Origin: an uncultured Gallionellaceae bacterium
GTDB lineage: Bacteria > Pseudomonadota > Gammaproteobacteria > Burkholderiales > Gallionellaceae
NCBI GenBank assembly: GCA_903913145.1
Contig: CAIWKC010000144.1
Coordinates: 1-51,128 of the forward strand
Reading direction: 5' to 3'
DNA: 51,128 bases
In this document: positions 44,405 to 48,693 of the stretch, in pieces
How positions within the stretch are numbered: the stretch's first letter is position 1
Layout of the letters: every line of letters starts with the position of its first letter
Program-made: the position numbers and the translations under genes
Notes under the pieces: model-generated
Told to the model about the DNA's origin: nothing
Seen by the model: only the letters and a program-made list of their open reading frames with translations
Databases searched by the model: none

Positions 44405-44788
44405 CTACGCGACTCCTCTCAAAATTAATCCTGCATGAATTTTCTTCAACCCTTCTACTGCCAGTGCATCTACATCCAATCTACGAAACACAATTGAATG
44501 ACCCAACCACAACACACCCAGCGCCGCCCGTTCGTTCATCTCCAATCCCCTCATCGTCCCGTCGACAGCTCGTGATGCTATTGAGTCAGCTTCCTCTTCA
44601 CAGTCATCGAAGCAATTAACGCCCCAGAAGACGAATCCTTTGGATCCGGTAGGGTAACCCCTCACCGCCGACCCTTTACGCATCCAGAGCGCCCATTTAT
44701 CCATGCTGATGCCGACGATTGGAGGAACTCCGGAGAGAAGTAATACTCGATCTTGCCATTCGCGGATTTGGTCAAAGGTCTGGATCAT
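44405..44788 (-). CDS. Putative Q-type late antiterminator (127 aa)
   Basis: By eye it resembles the lambdoid Q family: KWALWMRKGSAVRGYPTGSKGF, then an acidic DDCEEEADSI segment and LGVLWLGHSIVFRRLDVDA ... GLKKIHAGL. It lies at the distal end of the early operon. Confidence 0.45.
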   Translation of the reverse strand: MIQTFDQIREWQDRVLLLSGVPPIVGISMDKWALWMRKGSAVRGYPTGSKGFVFWGVNCFDDCEEEADSIASRAVDGTMRGLEMNERAALGVLWLGHSIVFRRLDVDALAVEGLKKIHAGLILRGVA

Positions 44789-45021
44789 TTGTATGTCTCG
44801 ATTAATTTGTCTAGATAGTGACTCGCCTTTAATAAATCATCGATGCCGTTCTTTTCTTTGTACCTTGTAACGTACTTGATAATATTCCCCTCGAGATATC
44901 CGAGTTTGTTTTGAATAATGTAATCCCAAGGCTGAATAGGGAGCTGATAATGCGAGCCGGCAACTTGCCGATAATTTGCATCGCACGTGGGCATTGGTGG
45001 AGCTACGTAGTAGTCTGGCAT
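44785..45021 (-). CDS. DUF3310-like protein (78 aa)
   Basis: AAGGAG lies upstream of the ATG at 45021. HYQLPIQPWDYI ... GNIIKYVTRYKEKNGIDDLLKASHYLDKLI matches the DUF3310 pattern. Confidence 0.7.
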   Translation of the reverse strand: MPDYYVAPPMPTCDANYRQVAGSHYQLPIQPWDYIIQNKLGYLEGNIIKYVTRYKEKNGIDDLLKASHYLDKLIETYK

Positions 45022-45698
45022 TTCAACTCCTTTAGTTTGCGTTGATAGGTTTTCTTGATCTCGACTAGCTCTTCTTTCGTGTAATGTTTGGGATCGTGCG
45101 GCCCCTCTAACCAATCCAGTTTTTCTTGGCCGATAATCTTCAACAGATTTTTTCTATACTCGATCAGATTTCCACTGAGATACGAGTTACACCTCTCACA
45201 TTGCGGCCAAATATTAATTTCCTCAAACCTGGTTGAAGGCGATGATCCAACTGATCGATAGTGACCACCGTTGATCTTTCCATTCTTTGTTCCACAACTG
45301 ACACAACCCATTCCGAGAGACAAACCGTATTCTCTTCGGTATGCATTGATTGCGATTTGGGCTTCTTTTTTGTACTCGCCTAATGATTTGCATTTCAACT
45401 TCTCCTCTTTGTAGGCTTTACGTTCATCGGCTGTTGCTTTCTTGTGAAGCTTTTCTTTTTCTTGGTGAATATACAAATATGCACAATCCACAGAGCACAC
45501 AAACTGATCAGCGCGCTTCGGCTCGAATTCTGTCTTGCACACTTTGCACTTTTTCAACTTCGGCTTTCGTACCGTGGACAACTTGTCGGCATATCGCTCT
45601 GAAGTCCTACTGTAATTTTCTTGGACAGGCAAACTATCAACAGGAAGTGTCCCTTCCCTTCCGTGGTCTTGCTGCTGAGATGTTTGCATGTTGGGCAT
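45003..45698 (-). CDS. ninG: NinG/Rap-like structure-specific endonuclease
   Basis: It has Cys clusters (CKVCKTEF ... CSVDC; CVSCGT ... GGHYRS ... CERCN) and a basic helical linker typical of lambda NinG. Confidence 0.75.
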   Translation of the reverse strand: MPNMQTSQQQDHGREGTLPVDSLPVQENYSRTSERYADKLSTVRKPKLKKCKVCKTEFEPKRADQFVCSVDCAYLYIHQEKEKLHKKATADERKAYKEEKLKCKSLGEYKKEAQIAINAYRREYGLSLGMGCVSCGTKNGKINGGHYRSVGSSPSTRFEEINIWPQCERCNSYLSGNLIEYRKNLLKIIGQEKLDWLEGPHDPKHYTKEELVEIKKTYQRKLKELKCQTTT

Positions 45699-45707
45699 AG
45701 TTGGGGT

Positions 45708-46949
45708 TTATTTGATTTGATCGACAAAGTTGATCCTCTCGCCAATCCACTGCATGACATTCACCGCCATTGAATTACCCAAAGCTTTGTAACGAGATGA
45801 ATCAGTTGCACTGGGAATATCGGTATATCCGTCAGGAAATCCCTGCAATCTTTCGCACTCTGTTGGGGTAAGGCGGCGCACTTGCATTGATTGGATAAGC
45901 AGCGCATCTGACTCAACACGTTCGTTTCCAGTACGAGAATAAGGTGGACCGCTACTACCCATGCATGGGCCAACTTCTGCTGTTGCAAAACATACCGCAT
46001 GCGCATCAGTTTTGGTGAGCGTGTACGATGACCCGGTATCATCAAATCCAGTTCCGTTACCCCCATTTTCTGGTTGCCTTCCGATTGTGTTACCAGCGAG
46101 CGCAATAGCATCAACAAAGCGACCCCCGTTGATAGAAATCAATGTTTCCGTTTCGCTGTCCAATCGTGTTTTGGTGACTAGACATTTCGCTACAGACGAA
46201 CAGCCCCCCCCGGAATTGATATGCTGATTATCCAGACCATATTTGTCTGCATAGTTATCTTGTAGGGTTGGGGCTACGGATTGGATGATATGTCCTGACT
46301 CACAATCTTGGACTCCGCGACTGAGGCCAGTGCGCGCTCCAATTGTGCCGGCAACCGCTTCCCTCTTTTTTCTGCTCGGCGCAGGACTCCCGCACATGCT
46401 TTCTGAGTCAAAAAGTACCGCTGCGGCACGTCTCCAGTCTCCAAGATGTCCGACAACGAACACACGCCTTCTTCGGTGTGGAACGGCTCGGGGAAACTGG
46501 TGTGTTCGGATGTACTGAGCGTCAAGAACCCGGTAAGCGACCCCATACCCGCATTCTTCCAGCGCAGTGATAAGGGAAGCAAAATCTTTTCCTCCGTTGC
46601 TTGACAGGACTCCGGGTACATTTTCCCATGCCAGCCATTTGGGTTTAAATCGTGAAGCAATGGCAACGTAGGTAAGCATGAGGTTGCCACGTGGATCATC
46701 CAATCCCTTTCTAAGTCCTGCGATACTGAATGATTGGCAGGGCGTTCCTCCCACAAGGACATCTGGTTGTTCAATTTCCCACTCCTTAAATTTAGTCATG
46801 TCACCAAAGTTTTTTACGTGCGGATAGTGATGCGCCAACAGCTTGCATGGGAACGGCTCTATTTCTGAAAATCCAACAGGCTTCCATCCCATGTGATGCC
46901 AAGCTACAGTCGCCGCCTCAATCCCAGAGCAAACAGATAAATATTTCAT
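45708..46949 (-). CDS. dcm: DNA (cytosine-5)-methyltransferase
   Basis: Motifs seen are I (LSVCSGIE), IV (GGTPCQSFS), VI (AWENVPG), VIII (RRRRVFVVG), IX-X (RRLTPTECERLQGFP) and LGNSMAVNV. Confidence 0.93.
   Translation of the reverse strand: MKYLSVCSGIEAATVAWHHMGWKPVGFSEIEPFPCKLLAHHYPHVKNFGDMTKFKEWEIEQPDVLVGGTPCQSFSIAGLRKGLDDPRGNLMLTYVAIASRFKPKWLAWENVPGVLSSNGGKDFASLITALEECGYGVAYRVLDAQYIRTHQFPRAVPHRRRRVFVVGHLGDWRRAAAVLFDSESMCGSPAPSRKKREAVAGTIGARTGLSRGVQDCESGHIIQSVAPTLQDNYADKYGLDNQHINSGGGCSSVAKCLVTKTRLDSETETLISINGGRFVDAIALAGNTIGRQPENGGNGTGFDDTGSSYTLTKTDAHAVCFATAEVGPCMGSSGPPYSRTGNERVESDALLIQSMQVRRLTPTECERLQGFPDGYTDIPSATDSSRYKALGNSMAVNVMQWIGERINFVDQIK
46274..46774 (-). CDS. Candidate overlapping gene in an alternative frame of dcm (166 codons open; likely starts 46699 or 46621)
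   Basis: The translation is protein-like: ...FPEPFHTEEGVCSLSDILETGDVPQRYFLTQKACAGVLRRAEKRGKRLPAQLERALASVAES. AAGGGA lies 4 nt upstream of the ATG at 46699. Confidence 0.4.
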   Translation of the reverse strand: MNNQMSLWEERPANHSVSQDLERDWMIHVATSCLPTLPLLHDLNPNGWHGKMYPESCQATEEKILLPLSLRWKNAGMGSLTGFLTLSTSEHTSFPEPFHTEEGVCSLSDILETGDVPQRYFLTQKACAGVLRRAEKRGKRLPAQLERALASVAESKIVSQDISSNP

Positions 46950-47383
46950 TCTTCACTTTCCGGAAACTCAAGCTGTACTCCCCGCTTCATGAAATCCGCT
47001 TGTACCAATTCCAGATAAGTCGATAATTGCTTCTTGCTCATCAGTGATGTGACCGGTACAAATTCCATCGCGGCCAGTTTCTGCTCGTAGCTCAATACCT
47101 TCAGCCCGGCATCGTAGAACTCGCGAAATTTTTCATCGTCCATGCGTAGAATCGGAATGCCGTGGTGTAGCTTGCAGTACCGTCTCCAACCGTTTGAATC
47201 GTCCTCTCTCAACTCCAGACTGATTTGCGAGTACCAGGCGTGACTCAATGCATTCTGATCCAGACTTCGTTTGTTCACGGCCTCATACCTACCCTCAAGC
47301 TTTCCGGTCTTTTTGTAGAGCAGACGCATCTCGCCAATGACGTTGTGGAGGGATTGTTCTGTGTTGATGTAGAAAGAACTCAC
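46946..47383 (-). CDS. ninB: NinB/Orf-like recombination mediator
   Basis: KRSLDQNALSHAWYSQIS matches the NinB RSLDQN core. The GTG start at 47383 overlaps the stop of the upstream small ORF (GTGA). The stop overlaps the dcm start. Confidence 0.65.
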   Translation of the reverse strand: MSSFYINTEQSLHNVIGEMRLLYKKTGKLEGRYEAVNKRSLDQNALSHAWYSQISLELREDDSNGWRRYCKLHHGIPILRMDDEKFREFYDAGLKVLSYEQKLAAMEFVPVTSLMSKKQLSTYLELVQADFMKRGVQLEFPESEE

Positions 47384-47547
47384 AACTCCACCCCTTCCAA
47401 CTCGTGATACTGCGCCACACAAAACGCACGGTATTCTTTGTCCTCTTTGCACAACCGAATTGTCTCGGCAATGATTGCGTCATCGTTCTCACCAATGAGC
47501 TGCAGCCAAGCTAGAACTTTTTCACGAGGTTTAATTTTTATCTCCAT
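47380..47547 (-). CDS. Small ORF (55 aa), below the ORF-track cutoff
   Basis: MEIKIKPREKVLAWLQLIGENDDAIIAETIRLCKEDKEYRAFCVAQYHELEGVEL. It is coupled to the ninB-like gene, but I see no clear SD. Confidence 0.5.
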   Translation of the reverse strand: MEIKIKPREKVLAWLQLIGENDDAIIAETIRLCKEDKEYRAFCVAQYHELEGVEL

Positions 47548-47865: not shown

Positions 47866-48693
47866 TCATAATTGTTTACGCAACCACTGTGATGCTTTGA
47901 ACAAACCCATTTCTTGATGAAAATCATTAAAATCTTGCCCAACCTTTTCAGGCATGAACCATTTCAATCCGGTTACTCTCGCTACTCTCTCTCCGGTCCC
48001 GGAAGCATCGTTATCCGCGCACACAATCGCATCAGGAAGGGTCTTGGCAACGCGCAAAATGTTCCCGGCAGAGAAACATACGTGGATTGAATACGGAGGC
48101 TTTAAAACGGCTTTTAAACTGAGTGCTGTGGCATATCCCTCACAGAGATAATTTTGCCCACGTGCATTGAAATTGAAAGTTGCATCATTGGTACGCTGAC
48201 CTTTTAGAAATTTTTTATTCCCATGTATATCGATCAGCTGCACACCACATATATTTCCACGGAAGTACATCGGGATGACCAGAAGCGGATCGCAATCTTC
48301 TCTGTGCCATACATTGGCAAGCAGGTCACGGAAACCTTTTGAATCAAGATAGGCATGTTGTGATAGTTCACACTGAGACAGAATCCACTTAGCTTTTTCA
48401 GATGCTTTTCTTTGTAAAGCTTGACGCTCTAACGAATGCGATTTTTTCGCCACATCCATTTTTATTTTTAATTCTTTTTGCTCAAAAGCTGTTCTTGGTT
48501 TATTGTCGAACCATGTATCTGGAGTTTCTTGAATGGCCCAATTCTGAACATGTCCATACTCACCAGCAAAGTAGTACGCGCCATTTTTGCTACGAGGATG
48601 GTCTACCGTCTTAACTCTTTTCCATTTTCCAGACACCAACCCATCATCAATGATGAGGCCGCGCTCTGCTGCAAATGATACAAAGTCGTTCAT
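47866..48693 (-). CDS. Toprim-domain DNA primase-like protein
   Basis: GKWKRVKTVDHPRSKNGAYYF is followed by the Toprim residues CEGYATALS (E) and CADNDASGTGE (DxD). Confidence 0.8.
   Translation of the reverse strand: MNDFVSFAAERGLIIDDGLVSGKWKRVKTVDHPRSKNGAYYFAGEYGHVQNWAIQETPDTWFDNKPRTAFEQKELKIKMDVAKKSHSLERQALQRKASEKAKWILSQCELSQHAYLDSKGFRDLLANVWHREDCDPLLVIPMYFRGNICGVQLIDIHGNKKFLKGQRTNDATFNFNARGQNYLCEGYATALSLKAVLKPPYSIHVCFSAGNILRVAKTLPDAIVCADNDASGTGERVARVTGLKWFMPEKVGQDFNDFHQEMGLFKASQWLRKQL

What the first reader, a model, noticed from the sequence alone, without database searches (positions are those of the whole stretch)
46274..46774. Protein-like 166-codon alternative reading frame hidden inside the cytosine-5 methyltransferase gene
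**Main frame.** The dcm main frame is clearly genuine, with motifs I, IV, VI, VIII, IX and X.

**Alternative frame.**
- A second same-strand frame is open from 46774 to 46274, overlying motifs IV-VIII and the start of the variable region.
- Unlike every other nested ORF in this window, its translation does not look like off-frame noise.
- It reads ...GWHGKMYPESCQATEEKILLPLSLRWKNAGMGSLTGFLTLSTSEHTSFPEPFHTEEGVCSLSDILETGDVPQRYFLTQKACAGVLRRAEKRGKRLPAQLERALASVAES.
- This sequence is helix-rich and charge-balanced.
- It echoes the FxFPxP...LxDILE...KYxLS segment that follows motif VIII in many C5-methyltransferases.
- The main frame over the same nucleotides becomes low-complexity after motif VIII (SPAPSRKKREAVAGTIGARTG).

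**Candidate starts.**
- ATG at 46699, with AAGGGA 4 nt upstream.
- ATG at 46621, created by the GAA-AAT-GTA codons of the WENV motif. GKMYPE is therefore the shifted reading of WENVPG.

**Recollection only, not checked.**
- Stand-alone hypothetical proteins starting ..MSPE.S.. and ending ..LS.ILE...KY.LS.KAC.GIL.RA.KRGK.LP..L..AL are annotated in unrelated prophages and ICEs.
- Back-translating a Firmicutes-type dcm (WENVPGAFSSNKGEDF) in this frame gives GKMSPEHSAATKEKT.
- Those entries may therefore be this same hidden frame, conserved across distant dcm genes.

**Interpretation.** This is either a widespread overprinted gene or a systematic annotation artefact. Either outcome is worth resolving.
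Basis: partly seen in the sequence, partly recalled or inferred. Interest (0 to 1): 0.8.

Follow-up and report, generated by a model that had tools for sequence, protein, structure and literature searches.

The report
Hidden gene inside phage cytosine methyltransferase
A second protein-coding gene lies in the +1 reading frame of this phage's DNA cytosine methyltransferase gene, is kept by natural selection in relatives from phage P1 to mycobacteriophages, and probably makes a partner of the enzyme that annotation has missed.

Summary
Window 46274-46774 (-) is a 166-codon ORF in the +1 frame of a complete C5-methyltransferase gene (45708-46949).

It is not off-frame noise:
- All 58 non-redundant homologues (GC 0.40-0.65) keep a 149-217-codon +1 ORF at the same place. 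Synonymous-codon shuffles give about 54-144 codons.
- Synonymous change in the dcm frame is suppressed 2-3 fold inside the overlap.
- Alt-frame dNN/dNS is 0.45 overall and 0.34 in the last third, against 0.83-1.09 in controls.
- At dcm residues 191-212 the codon periodicity switches to the alt frame.
- A start codon is usually conserved: ATG in most homologues, TTG 46774 with AAGGAG 7 nt upstream here.

The "stand-alone hypothetical proteins" (5097 clusters) are this same frame, called by gene finders inside open dcm genes.

New points:
- In Firmicutes, Pasteurellaceae and other lineages, a frame change in the linker fuses the alt product to the target-recognition domain (TRD) plus motifs IX-X, giving a split alpha/beta enzyme.
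- In one relative, a duplicated TRD module sits in the alt frame with 10 synonymous and 2 conservative differences.
- Phage P1 dmt carries the ORF too.

Function is inferred, not shown: most likely a methyltransferase-associated module. Only the C-terminal ~50 residues (three basic helices) are confidently structured. No Pfam, NCBIfam or PDB relative exists.

The parts
45708..46949 (-). Host gene: phage-type DNA (cytosine-5) methyltransferase, 413 aa, single chain with motifs I-X. It sits between ninB-like and ninG-like genes.
   Evidence: Pfam PF00145 E=1.2e-54. phrog_116 E=6.6e-90. TIGR00675 E=3.5e-54. Neighbours NinB and NinG.
46274..46774 (-). Overlapping +1-frame gene ('alt'), 166 codons plus TAG stop (46276-46274). 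It overlies dcm motifs IV-VIII and the post-VIII linker.
   Evidence: Conserved in 58/58 homologues. Alt-frame purifying selection dNN/dNS 0.45. 1143 called homologous proteins.
46782..46787 (-). Shine-Dalgarno-like AAGGAG, formed by the dcm K-E codons of the conserved K-E/D-W. It lies 7 nt upstream of TTG 46774.
   Evidence: Sequence. AAGGAG or AAAGAA is found ~10 nt upstream of the alt ATG in most homologues.
46772..46774 (-). Probable alt start codon (TTG), at about the position (dcm codon 59) where most homologues have ATG, often directly preceded by an in-frame TAA or TAG.
   Evidence: first ATG at dcm codon 58-59 in 39 of 58 homologues..
46760..46762 (-). Alternative alt start (first ATG, M5 of the ORF). 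AAGGAG is 19 nt upstream, which is poorer spacing.
46316..46465 (-). Most strongly selected part of alt: residues V104-A153 (CSLSDILETGDVPQRYFLTQKACAGVLRRAEKRGKRLPAQLERALASVA). It is a predicted basic three-helix module.
   Evidence: AF2 pLDDT 74-91 for residues ~111-150 of the 162-aa form; the rest is below 50. Wobble identity 0.76-0.85. tblastn matches to 126 phage records, mostly this part.
46314..46439 (-). dcm residues 171-212: a stretch where selection acts on the alt frame only. The dcm frame behaves as an unconstrained linker.
   Evidence: dcm dNN/dSN 0.97 against alt dNN/dNS 0.34. At residues 191-212 nucleotide identity is pos1 0.42, pos2 0.59, pos3 0.73, so the phase has switched to alt.

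Best explanation
**What it is (shown by comparative evidence).** Window 46274-46774 (-) is a genuine, ancient protein-coding gene. It is overprinted in the +1 frame on motifs IV-VIII and the post-motif-VIII linker of a phage-type C5 DNA methyltransferase gene.

**How it is made (inferred for this phage).**
- It is translated from its own start, TTG 46774, with AAGGAG 7 nt upstream. Relatives have ATG at this position.
- The product is ~160-166 aa.
- The N-terminal ~100 residues are largely dictated by the dcm motifs. For example, EERPANHS is the +1 reading of GGTPCQSFS, and GKMYPE is the +1 reading of WENVPG. This part is predicted to be disordered.
- The C-terminal ~50 residues form a basic three-helix module that is under stronger purifying selection than the dcm frame over the same nucleotides.

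**What it does (inferred).** It works with the methyltransferase, as an accessory or assembly subunit or a DNA-binding module placed next to the target-recognition domain (TRD). Three observations lead to this:
- It is never lost from this methyltransferase clade.
- In several lineages a frame change in the variable linker fuses it in frame to TRD + motifs IX-X. This gives a split alpha (motifs I-VIII) / beta (alt + TRD + IX-X) enzyme.
- In other relatives it has acquired a TRD-like module at its own N-terminus.

**Confidence.** About 0.9 that it is a selected coding gene. About 0.4 that its role is as a methyltransferase partner.
For: **ORF conservation**
- All 58 homologues (<90% aa identity, GC 0.40-0.65) have a 149-217-codon +1 ORF from dcm codon ~51/59 to ~206-234. 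Shuffle null means are 54-144 codons.
- 129 of 130 fetched loci with both features have the alt-HMM hit at +1.
- Canonical E. coli dcm and the canonical methyltransferase in L053 lack it.

**Selection**
- Synonymous codon identity given the same amino acid is 0.41-0.44 outside the overlap. Inside it is 0.58, 0.67 and 0.80 in successive thirds.
- The dcm-synonymous rate is 0.21-0.33 inside against 0.62-0.68 outside.
- Alt dNN/dNS is 0.66, 0.68 and 0.34 in successive thirds, against 1.09 and 0.83 in control regions.
- The periodicity phase switches at dcm residues 191-212.
- dcm GC3 stays at 0.37-0.59 inside the overlap while it ranges 0.15-0.85 outside.
- R<->K swaps (CGG<->AAG) keep the alt sequence VPQ(R/K)Y.

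**Start codon**
- ATG at dcm codon 58-59 in 39 of 58 homologues.

**Independent proof that the frame is read as protein**
- In L144 an 84-nt TRD module is duplicated upstream. It is in frame with alt and out of frame with dcm.
- It differs from its dcm-frame copy at 12 codons: 10 synonymous and 2 conservative.

**Fusions to the rest of the enzyme**
- L044, L025, L028, L032, L033, L035, L037, L039, L040 and L006 all have the +1 ORF continuing into the downstream part of the gene; motif IX was detected in it in six of them (L006, L032, L033, L035, L037, L044).
- Beta-type proteins P0279-P0298, P0152 and P0375 occur in many samples.

**Breadth**
- P1 and RCS47 dmt, Enterobacter phage CobraSix, Mycobacterium phage Beem, Burkholderia phage Bcep22, Pseudanabaena phage Pan4, and Vibrio phages.
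- 5097 clusters in the 1.84-billion-protein library.
Against: - There is no direct evidence of translation (ribosome profiling or peptides) for this phage or any relative.
- The product has no Pfam, NCBIfam, PADLOC or PDB relative.
- AF2 gives a confident structure only for ~50 residues (mean pLDDT 55.6).
- The beta-type model was poor (pLDDT 40.7), so no structural link to the enzyme could be shown.
- The pairs used for the selection statistics are phylogenetically non-independent, and the distances are uncorrected.
- Much of the N-terminal conservation is a by-product of dcm motifs.
- The window's own start is TTG, not ATG.
- The single-chain dcm already has all ten motifs, so no missing part obviously needs supplying.
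- The functional assignment rests on fusion and retention patterns only.
Confidence: 0.8

Rival explanations
1. The alt protein is real but works independently of the methyltransferase. Examples would be a counter-defence factor (an inhibitor of methylation-dependent restriction such as McrBC or Mrr) or a small regulator. On this view it is linked to dcm only because the two genes share nucleotides.
For: - The single-chain dcm has all motifs I-X and needs no extra part.
- Alt has no detectable homology to methyltransferase domains.
- A disordered N-terminus plus a small basic helical module is typical of overprinted accessory proteins.
- In Mycobacterium phage Beem, alt is a separate nested ORF even though the enzyme is split elsewhere.
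Against: - Alt has been fused in frame to TRD + IX-X repeatedly and in diverse lineages, and these long ORFs stay intact.
- TRD-like modules have been acquired in the alt frame.
- Alt is never lost in ~75 independent lineages of this clade.
- No PADLOC hit.
Confidence: 0.25
2. The +1 frame is used by recoding, not as a separate gene. Ribosomes (or RNA polymerase) would shift between the dcm and alt frames to make enzyme isoforms. The two-ORF loci would then be frameshift-dependent single enzymes.
For: - Two-ORF layouts put I-VIII and TRD-IX-X in frames 0 and +1.
- A database protein (P0199) joins the dcm N-terminus to alt.
- An A AAA AAG heptamer lies in the dcm frame at 46371-46365.
Against: - Alt has its own usually conserved start codon, often directly preceded by an in-frame stop. 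A shift near the end of ORF A would not require ~120 open, selected codons upstream.
- The heptamer is present in only 7 of 58 homologues.
- The only hairpin found is not conserved.
- Single-chain genes are complete without any shift.
- A -1 shift from dcm enters the +2 frame, not alt.
Confidence: 0.07
3. There is no second gene. The open frame and its similarity to database proteins would be a by-product of strong dcm conservation and codon usage, and the database proteins would be gene-caller artefacts.
For: - The N-terminal alt motifs are forced by dcm motifs IV and VI.
- The database proteins checked are alt-frame calls inside open dcm genes.
- In the window alone the shuffle P is only 0.03.
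- Most of the product is predicted to be disordered.
Against: - The frame is open in 58/58 homologues, including genomes with dcm GC3 of 0.15-0.27 outside the overlap.
- The wobble positions of dcm are more conserved than its amino acids at residues 184-206.
- dcm dN/dS is ~1 where alt dNN/dNS is 0.34.
- Control regions read in the same +1 frame give ~1.
- The L144 duplicated module has a 10:2 synonymous bias in the alt frame.
Confidence: 0.04
4. The nucleotide conservation reflects an RNA or DNA element inside dcm, such as a terminator, an attenuator or a regulatory structure, rather than coding.
For: - A terminator-like hairpin lies at 46429-46415 (-).
- Nucleotide-level similarity to distant phages is unusually high across nt 2-600 of the gene.
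Against: - The hairpin is absent from most homologues.
- The constraint has three-base periodicity in the alt phase and runs for ~480 nt with no stop codon.
Confidence: 0.02

Closest known systems
M.EcoHK31I (alpha/beta C5-methyltransferase whose beta chain is encoded inside the alpha gene in another reading frame; PMC2836561, PMC3404938)
   Same: Both have a second polypeptide encoded wholly within a C5-methyltransferase gene, on the same strand, in a different frame. In M.EcoHK31I that polypeptide is a subunit of the enzyme.
   Different: M.EcoHK31I beta carries canonical motif IX, which alpha lacks, and is required for activity. Here the host chain has all motifs I-X. The nested product matches no canonical motif, lies over motifs IV-VIII rather than where M.EcoHK31I beta lies, and is conserved across thousands of phage and prophage genes rather than being one enzyme's peculiarity. 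A requirement for activity has not been tested.
M.AquI-type split C5-methyltransferases and fragment complementation of M.BspRI, M.BsuRI, M.HhaI and M.SssI (PMC3404938)
   Same: Relatives of this gene (L044, L006 and others) are split after motif VIII into a chain with motifs I-VIII and a chain with TRD + IX-X, as in M.AquI. This shows that the two halves can be separate chains.
   Different: The window gene is single-chain. In the split relatives the two ORFs overlap by ~365-500 nt, and the beta chain begins with the ~140-aa alt module. M.AquI beta (139 aa by my recollection) is not known to have such a module.
Overprinted same-strand genes of phages and viruses (classic examples from own knowledge: phiX174 B/K/E, lambda Rz/Rz1)
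   Same: One of two overlapping frames is younger-looking and disorder-rich. Synonymous change in the host frame is suppressed. The overlapping gene has its own start inside the host gene.
   Different: Here the overlap is conserved across phages of Actinobacteria, Firmicutes, Proteobacteria and cyanobacteria. The overprinted product is alternately free-standing or fused to the downstream half of its host gene by frame toggling.
dcm-vsr overlap in E. coli
   Same: A C5-methyltransferase gene shares nucleotides with a functionally linked second gene.
   Different: vsr overlaps only the 3' end of dcm (20 nt in K-12) and encodes a known endonuclease fold. E. coli dcm has no +1 ORF over motifs IV-VIII and gives no alt-HMM match.

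Membership tests
Same-strand overlapping (overprinted) protein-coding gene | The alternative frame stays open in homologues far beyond what the host protein sequence and codon usage predict. | tested here: met
   58/58 homologues have 149-217 open codons. Synonymous-shuffle null means are 54-144 codons. 24 of 58 genes have 0 of 500 shuffles reaching the observed length.
Same-strand overlapping (overprinted) protein-coding gene | Synonymous substitution in the host frame is suppressed across the overlap only. | tested here: met
   Synonymous codon identity is 0.58-0.80 inside against 0.41-0.44 outside. dSN is 0.21-0.33 inside against 0.62-0.68 outside. GC3 is pinned inside the overlap.
Same-strand overlapping (overprinted) protein-coding gene | Purifying selection acts on the alternative-frame amino acids (dNN/dNS < 1), with controls near 1. 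| tested here: met
   Overall 0.45, and 0.34 in the last third. Controls are 1.09 and 0.83. The method is approximate: uncorrected distances and non-independent pairs.
Same-strand overlapping (overprinted) protein-coding gene | A conserved start codon and ribosome-binding site of its own. | tested here: met
   First ATG at dcm codon 58-59 in 39 of 58 homologues, with GTG or TTG a possible start in several others. AAGGAG or AAAGAA lies upstream. In the window: TTG 46774 with AAGGAG 7 nt upstream.
Same-strand overlapping (overprinted) protein-coding gene | Direct detection of the product (ribosome footprints in the +1 phase, or peptides). | not testable with these tools
   No expression data were available, and the literature search tool failed.
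M.EcoHK31I-type nested methyltransferase subunit | An ORF wholly inside the methyltransferase gene, on the same strand, in a different frame. | tested here: met
   Family description from PMC2836561.
M.EcoHK31I-type nested methyltransferase subunit | The nested product carries a canonical motif (IX) that the host chain lacks. | tested here: not met
   The host chain has RRLTPTECERLQGFPDGYT (motif IX) and GNSMAVNVM (motif X) in frame, and PF00145 matches residues 1-406. Alt gives no PF00145 or TIGR00675 hit.
M.EcoHK31I-type nested methyltransferase subunit | The nested product is required for methylation. | not testable with these tools
   This needs genetics or biochemistry.
M.AquI-type split C5-methyltransferase | Motifs I-VIII and TRD/IX-X lie on two separate polypeptides. 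| tested here: not met
   The window gene is a single 413-aa chain. The feature is met in relatives L044, L006, L033 and others, where alt is the N-terminus of the second chain.
Canonical post-motif-VIII / TRD-proximal segment of C5-methyltransferases (FxFPxP...LxDILE...KYxLS) | Statistically supported sequence or profile similarity of the alt C-terminal module to that segment. | tested here: inconclusive
   hhalign's best local alignment is exactly this segment, but with probability 0.1% and E 0.5. The TIGR00675 alignment reaches into the alt part (HMM positions 184-189) in 2 of 11 beta-type proteins. No PDB methyltransferase hit at E<=10. The alt HMM does not hit E. coli Dcm.
Programmed ribosomal frameshift site | A conserved slippery sequence with a conserved stimulatory structure at the frame junction. 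| tested here: not met
   A AAA AAG is present in 7 of 58 homologues only. The hairpin at 46429-46415 is not conserved. No systematic search of the two-ORF junctions was made.
Known small partners of C5-methyltransferases (Vsr endonuclease, C-protein regulators) | A match to the corresponding family models. | tested here: not met
   No Pfam, NCBIfam or PADLOC family matches alt at the thresholds used.

The most novel reading that the evidence does not exclude
The alt product is an obligatory trans-acting subunit of the enzyme. On this reading it is the detached TRD-proximal element that the main chain of this clade lacks. Thousands of so-called orphan single-chain phage C5-methyltransferases, including the Dcm half of phage P1 Dmt, would then be two-protein enzymes encoded in two frames of one gene. 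One-nucleotide frame toggles in the linker would switch between a 'single chain + free alt' layout and an 'alpha + alt-beta' layout.
Probability: 0.25. Interest if true: 0.85.

Novelty: new variant of a known kind. Interest (0 to 1): 0.78.

Why it matters
**For phage and methyltransferase biology**
- If the product is made, a large and widely distributed class of phage and prophage cytosine methyltransferases carries an unannotated second gene. These enzymes are used by phages to evade restriction, and the class includes the dmt gene of the model phage P1.
- Experiments that mutate, truncate or codon-optimise these genes would unknowingly alter two proteins.

**For genome annotation**
- The finding explains a recurrent annotation problem. 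In GC-rich metagenomes, gene finders call the alt frame and truncate the methyltransferase, because the dcm wobble positions are pinned by the second frame.
- Thousands of 'hypothetical proteins' of ~160 aa in public databases can be reassigned.

**For the study of overlapping genes**
- It provides an unusually deep, testable case of same-strand dual coding.
- A natural 'frame toggle' alternately leaves the overprinted product free or fuses it to the downstream half of its host gene. This is useful for studying how overlapping genes arise and how split enzymes assemble.

Tried and rejected
**Searches for relatives of the alt product**
- Pfam, NCBIfam, PADLOC and PDB-sequence searches with the single sequence, the 116-sequence profile and each member found nothing meaningful.
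- The only hit was phrog_16143 'DNA methyltransferase' at E=8e-4.

**Structure prediction**
- AF2 of alt was confident only for residues ~103-150.
- A Foldseek search against PDB found nothing (best E 4.8).
- AF2 of a beta-type protein (P0281) failed to fold (pLDDT 40.7). It could not show whether the alt helices dock on the TRD.

**Homology of the alt C-terminus to the canonical post-motif-VIII segment**
- hhalign and HMM tests were not significant.

**A stand-alone alt domain that does not overlap a dcm N-half**
- Candidates turned out to be contig-truncated genes, a 5'-truncated gene next to an integrase-like ORF (L050), or alt ORFs extended upstream.

**RNA-structure explanation**
- The hairpin at 46429-46415 is not conserved.

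**Slippery-site explanation**
- The heptamer is not conserved.

**Close DNA relatives**
- Megablast of the dcm gene against GenBank phages and complete E. coli genomes found no match.

**Literature**
- The literature search for prior descriptions failed. Every query except 'EcoHK31I' timed out.
- The original M.EcoHK31I paper (PMC306636) is not held.
- Novelty therefore rests on my own knowledge and on the absence of any curated family.
Full report
**1. The observation**

The window carries a 413-aa ORF at 45708-46949 (-). It is a complete C5 DNA methyltransferase: Pfam DNA_methylase E=1.2e-54, phrog_116 E=6.6e-90, TIGR00675 E=3.5e-54. It sits between a NinB-like gene (46946-47452) and a NinG-like gene (45003-45698) of a lambdoid nin region.

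Its offset from the dcm start is 175 nt, so it is frame +1. Alt codon position 2 is therefore the dcm wobble position, and alt position 3 is dcm position 1. The ATGs at 46699 and 46621 exist and are in frame, and GKMYPE is the shifted reading of WENVPG.

**2. Is it more than chance?**

In the window alone, the 173-codon stop-to-stop opening is reached by 3% of 500 synonymous-codon shuffles of dcm (null mean 98). The comparative evidence is decisive.

- *Homologue set.* I fetched 80 viral-contig and 55 genome-contig relatives with the dcm protein and reduced the full-length ones to 58 sequences below 90% amino-acid identity (GC 0.40-0.65).
- *Openness.* Every one has a +1 ORF of 149-217 codons in the same place, from dcm codon ~51/59 to ~206-234. 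The +2 frame is mostly open for only ~25-85 codons. Shuffle nulls average 54-144 codons, and in 24 of 58 genes no shuffle reached the observed length.
In 129 the alt hit is at +1.
- *Negative controls.* E. coli K-12 dcm has five +1 stops across the equivalent region and no alt-HMM match. A canonical methyltransferase (L053) also lacks such an ORF.

**3. Selection**

- *Synonymous codon identity given the same amino acid.* It is 0.41-0.44 outside the overlap. Inside, it is 0.58, 0.67 and 0.80 in successive thirds. At dcm residues 184-206, dcm amino-acid identity is only 0.29-0.44 while wobble identity is 0.76-0.85.
- *Nucleotide identity by codon position.* Outside the overlap the pattern is the usual pos3-lowest (0.42-0.47). 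At residues 191-212 it is pos1 0.42, pos2 0.59, pos3 0.73, which is the periodicity of the alt frame.
- *OLGenie-style count on 400 pairs.* Alt dNN/dNS is 0.66, 0.68 and 0.34 across the overlap (0.45 overall). The same +1 frame outside the overlap gives 1.09 and 0.83. The dcm-synonymous rate is 0.21-0.33 inside against 0.62-0.68 outside. At residues 171-212, dcm dNN/dSN is 0.97, so only the alt frame is constrained there.
- *GC3.* dcm GC3 inside the overlap stays at 0.37-0.59 whatever the host, while outside it ranges from 0.15 to 0.85.
- *Limits.* These statistics use uncorrected distances and non-independent pairs, but the controls behave as expected.
- *RNA structure.* This explanation is excluded. 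The only hairpin (46429-46415) is absent from most homologues, and R/K swaps (CGG/AAG) preserve the alt sequence VPQ(R/K)Y.

**4. Start codon**

In 39 of 58 homologues the first ATG of the alt ORF lies at dcm codon 58-59. It is often directly preceded by an in-frame TAA or TAG, with AAGGAG or AAAGAA (from the conserved K-E/D-W codons of dcm) about 10 nt upstream. Several others have GTG or TTG at or near that position. In the window the codon at that position is TTG 46774, with AAGGAG (46787-46782) 7 nt upstream. ATG 46762 is the next candidate.

**5. The 'stand-alone hypothetical proteins'**

The alt product finds 1143 called proteins at E<=1e-3, with the best at 55-65% identity over ~90% of its length. 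They are ~150-175 aa, have no Pfam domain, and are named 'hypothetical protein'. A profile finds 5097 clusters among 1.84 billion representatives.

In the long contigs examined, the called gene lies inside a fully open dcm ORF. The gene finder chose the alt frame plus the C-terminal remainder of dcm (L001, L002, L003). Pinned GC3 probably explains this in GC-rich genomes. In GenBank phages the alt match lay in the +1 frame of the annotated methyltransferase CDS in all five records I inspected, and none annotated it as its own CDS:
- P1-like RCS47 dmt (162-aa ORF) and Enterobacter phage CobraSix (144 aa);
- Burkholderia phage Bcep22 gp25, an Oscillospiraceae phage, and Mycobacterium phage Beem.

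A P1 isolate, reached through a dcm DNA match, carries a 164-aa +1 ORF in the same place.

**6.

In many Firmicutes loci (L025, L028, L032, L033, L035, L037, L039, L040, L044) and in Mannheimia (L006), the frame with motifs I-VIII stops soon after motif VIII. The +1 ORF continues for 320-600 codons, and motif IX was detected in it in six of these loci. It reads: alt module, then the variable TRD region, then motifs IX and X.

Sister loci (L012, L014, L016, L029, and Kingella L005) are single-chain with a nested 144-152-codon alt ORF. Aligning L014 with L044 places the crossover in the variable linker just after the alt module.

Such beta-type proteins (261-379 aa) recur in many samples (P0279-P0298, with up to 81 members and 40 contigs). 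They also occur in Pseudomonas abyssi and in proteobacterial metagenomes (P0152). In Mannheimia haemolytica a 198-aa C-terminal 'DNA cytosine methyltransferase' is on 299 contigs. The split layout is therefore stable, not a sequencing error. In Beem the enzyme is split elsewhere and alt remains a separate nested ORF.

**7. Independent evidence that the alt frame is read as protein**

In L144 and L145, an insertion between the EWPDA segment and motif IV reads as low-complexity or Cys-rich sequence in the dcm frame. In the alt frame it reads as a TRD-like module fused to the alt N-terminus.

In L144 that module (1001-1084) is an 80%-identical direct repeat of a module read in the dcm frame downstream (1828-1911). 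The 12 differing codons are 10 synonymous and 2 conservative (L/I, E/D) in the alt reading.

**8. The product**

- *N-terminal part.* The sequence is largely forced by dcm. EERPANHS comes from GGTPCQSFS, and GKMYPE from WENVPG.
- *Structure.* AF2 with a 116-sequence alignment gives mean pLDDT 55.6. Only residues ~103-150 of the 162-aa form are confident, forming three helices: LSDILE, KACAGVLRRAEKRG and PAQLERALASVA.
- *Structural relatives.* Foldseek and PDB sequence searches find none.
- *Resemblance to the canonical FxFPxP...LxDILE...KYxLS segment.* hhalign picks it as its best local alignment, but at probability 0.1%. The TIGR00675 alignment reaches into the alt part in 2 of 11 beta-type proteins. 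This is inconclusive.
- *Geometry.* The alt copy overlies motif VIII itself, so a simple frameshift from a canonical ancestor cannot explain it.

**9. Interpretation**

Shown by comparative evidence:
- a conserved, selected, same-strand overlapping coding sequence with its own start;
- the same peptide is part of a longer methyltransferase chain in split relatives.

Inferred:
- that it is translated in this phage;
- that it functions with the enzyme. The grounds are that it is never lost in ~75 lineages, that it is repeatedly fused to TRD + IX-X, and that it acquires TRD modules.

Rivals are an independent function such as counter-defence, recoding by frameshifting, a by-product of dcm conservation, and an RNA element. 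They are weighed in the structured fields. The last two are contradicted.

**10. Comparison with known systems and novelty**

The closest precedent is M.EcoHK31I, whose beta chain is encoded within the alpha gene in another frame and supplies motif IX (PMC2836561; PMC3404938). M.AquI and fragment-complementation experiments show that C5-methyltransferase halves can assemble in trans (PMC3404938).

This case differs in three ways:
- the host chain is complete;
- the nested product has no canonical motif;
- the arrangement is ancient and very widespread.

I know of no description of it, and no curated family covers it. The literature tool failed on all but one query, so prior description cannot be excluded. 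I rate it a new variant of a known kind, with interest 0.78.

Noticed in passing
L139 865-4152 (Escherichia phage RCS47 dmt), compared with L147 (P1 isolate): RCS47 dmt is 1095 aa. An intein-like insertion splits motif IV at the catalytic cysteine (GGTPC|FTAGH...VVHN|CQAFS). The P1 isolate lacks it. Both keep the 162-164-codon +1 ORF, which starts just downstream of the insertion point.
   Followed up: partly
window 46365-46371 (-): A AAA AAG, the dnaX-type -1 slippery heptamer, lies in the dcm frame inside the overlap (codons AGA AAA AAG). Only 7 of 58 homologues have it, so it is probably a by-product of the alt E-K-R codons in an AT-leaning genome.
   Followed up: yes
window 46415-46429 (-): A terminator-like hairpin (GTGCCGCAGCGGTAC followed by TTTTTG) lies inside the gene, formed by the alt codons for VPQRYFL. 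It is not conserved in most homologues.
   Followed up: yes
L144 987-1190 and L145 1136-1420: An insertion lies between the EWPDA segment and motif IV of dcm. In the alt frame it reads as a TRD-like module. In the dcm frame it reads as low-complexity sequence (L144) or as a Cys-rich, zinc-finger-looking stretch (L145). Whether the dcm-frame reading of L145 is functional was not examined.
   Followed up: partly
window 46350-46948 (dcm nt 2-600): blastn finds 65-72% nucleotide identity to methyltransferase genes of very distant phages (Pseudanabaena, Roseobacter, Caulobacter, Vibrio, P1). The matches end where the conserved alt module ends. Dual coding makes this DNA unusually conserved.
   Followed up: partly
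window 46946-46949 and 45699-45707: The ninB-like gene's stop overlaps the dcm start (ATGA, 4-nt overlap). Only 9 nt separate the dcm stop from the ninG-like start. This suggests a tightly coupled operon.
   Followed up: no
L141 1185-2304 (Mycobacterium phage Beem gp123/gp124): The methyltransferase is annotated as two adjacent 'DNA methylase' genes, one with motifs I-VIII plus part of the TRD and one with IX-X. A third, unannotated 159-codon alt ORF (1357-1836) is nested in gp123.
   Followed up: partly
L050 1-1989: A 5'-truncated beta-type gene begins within the alt module, directly downstream of a tyrosine-recombinase-like ORF. It is probably a remnant created by a mobile-element insertion.
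   Followed up: no
window 47866-48693 (-) and 44785-45114 (-): A primase-like gene (phrog_2249) lies on the ninB side of the nin-like cluster. A small ORF matching nucleotide-kinase-associated phrogs lies on the ninG side. The dcm gene has no megablast match in GenBank phages or complete E. coli genomes, so the phage is not a close relative of sequenced coliphages.
   Followed up: no
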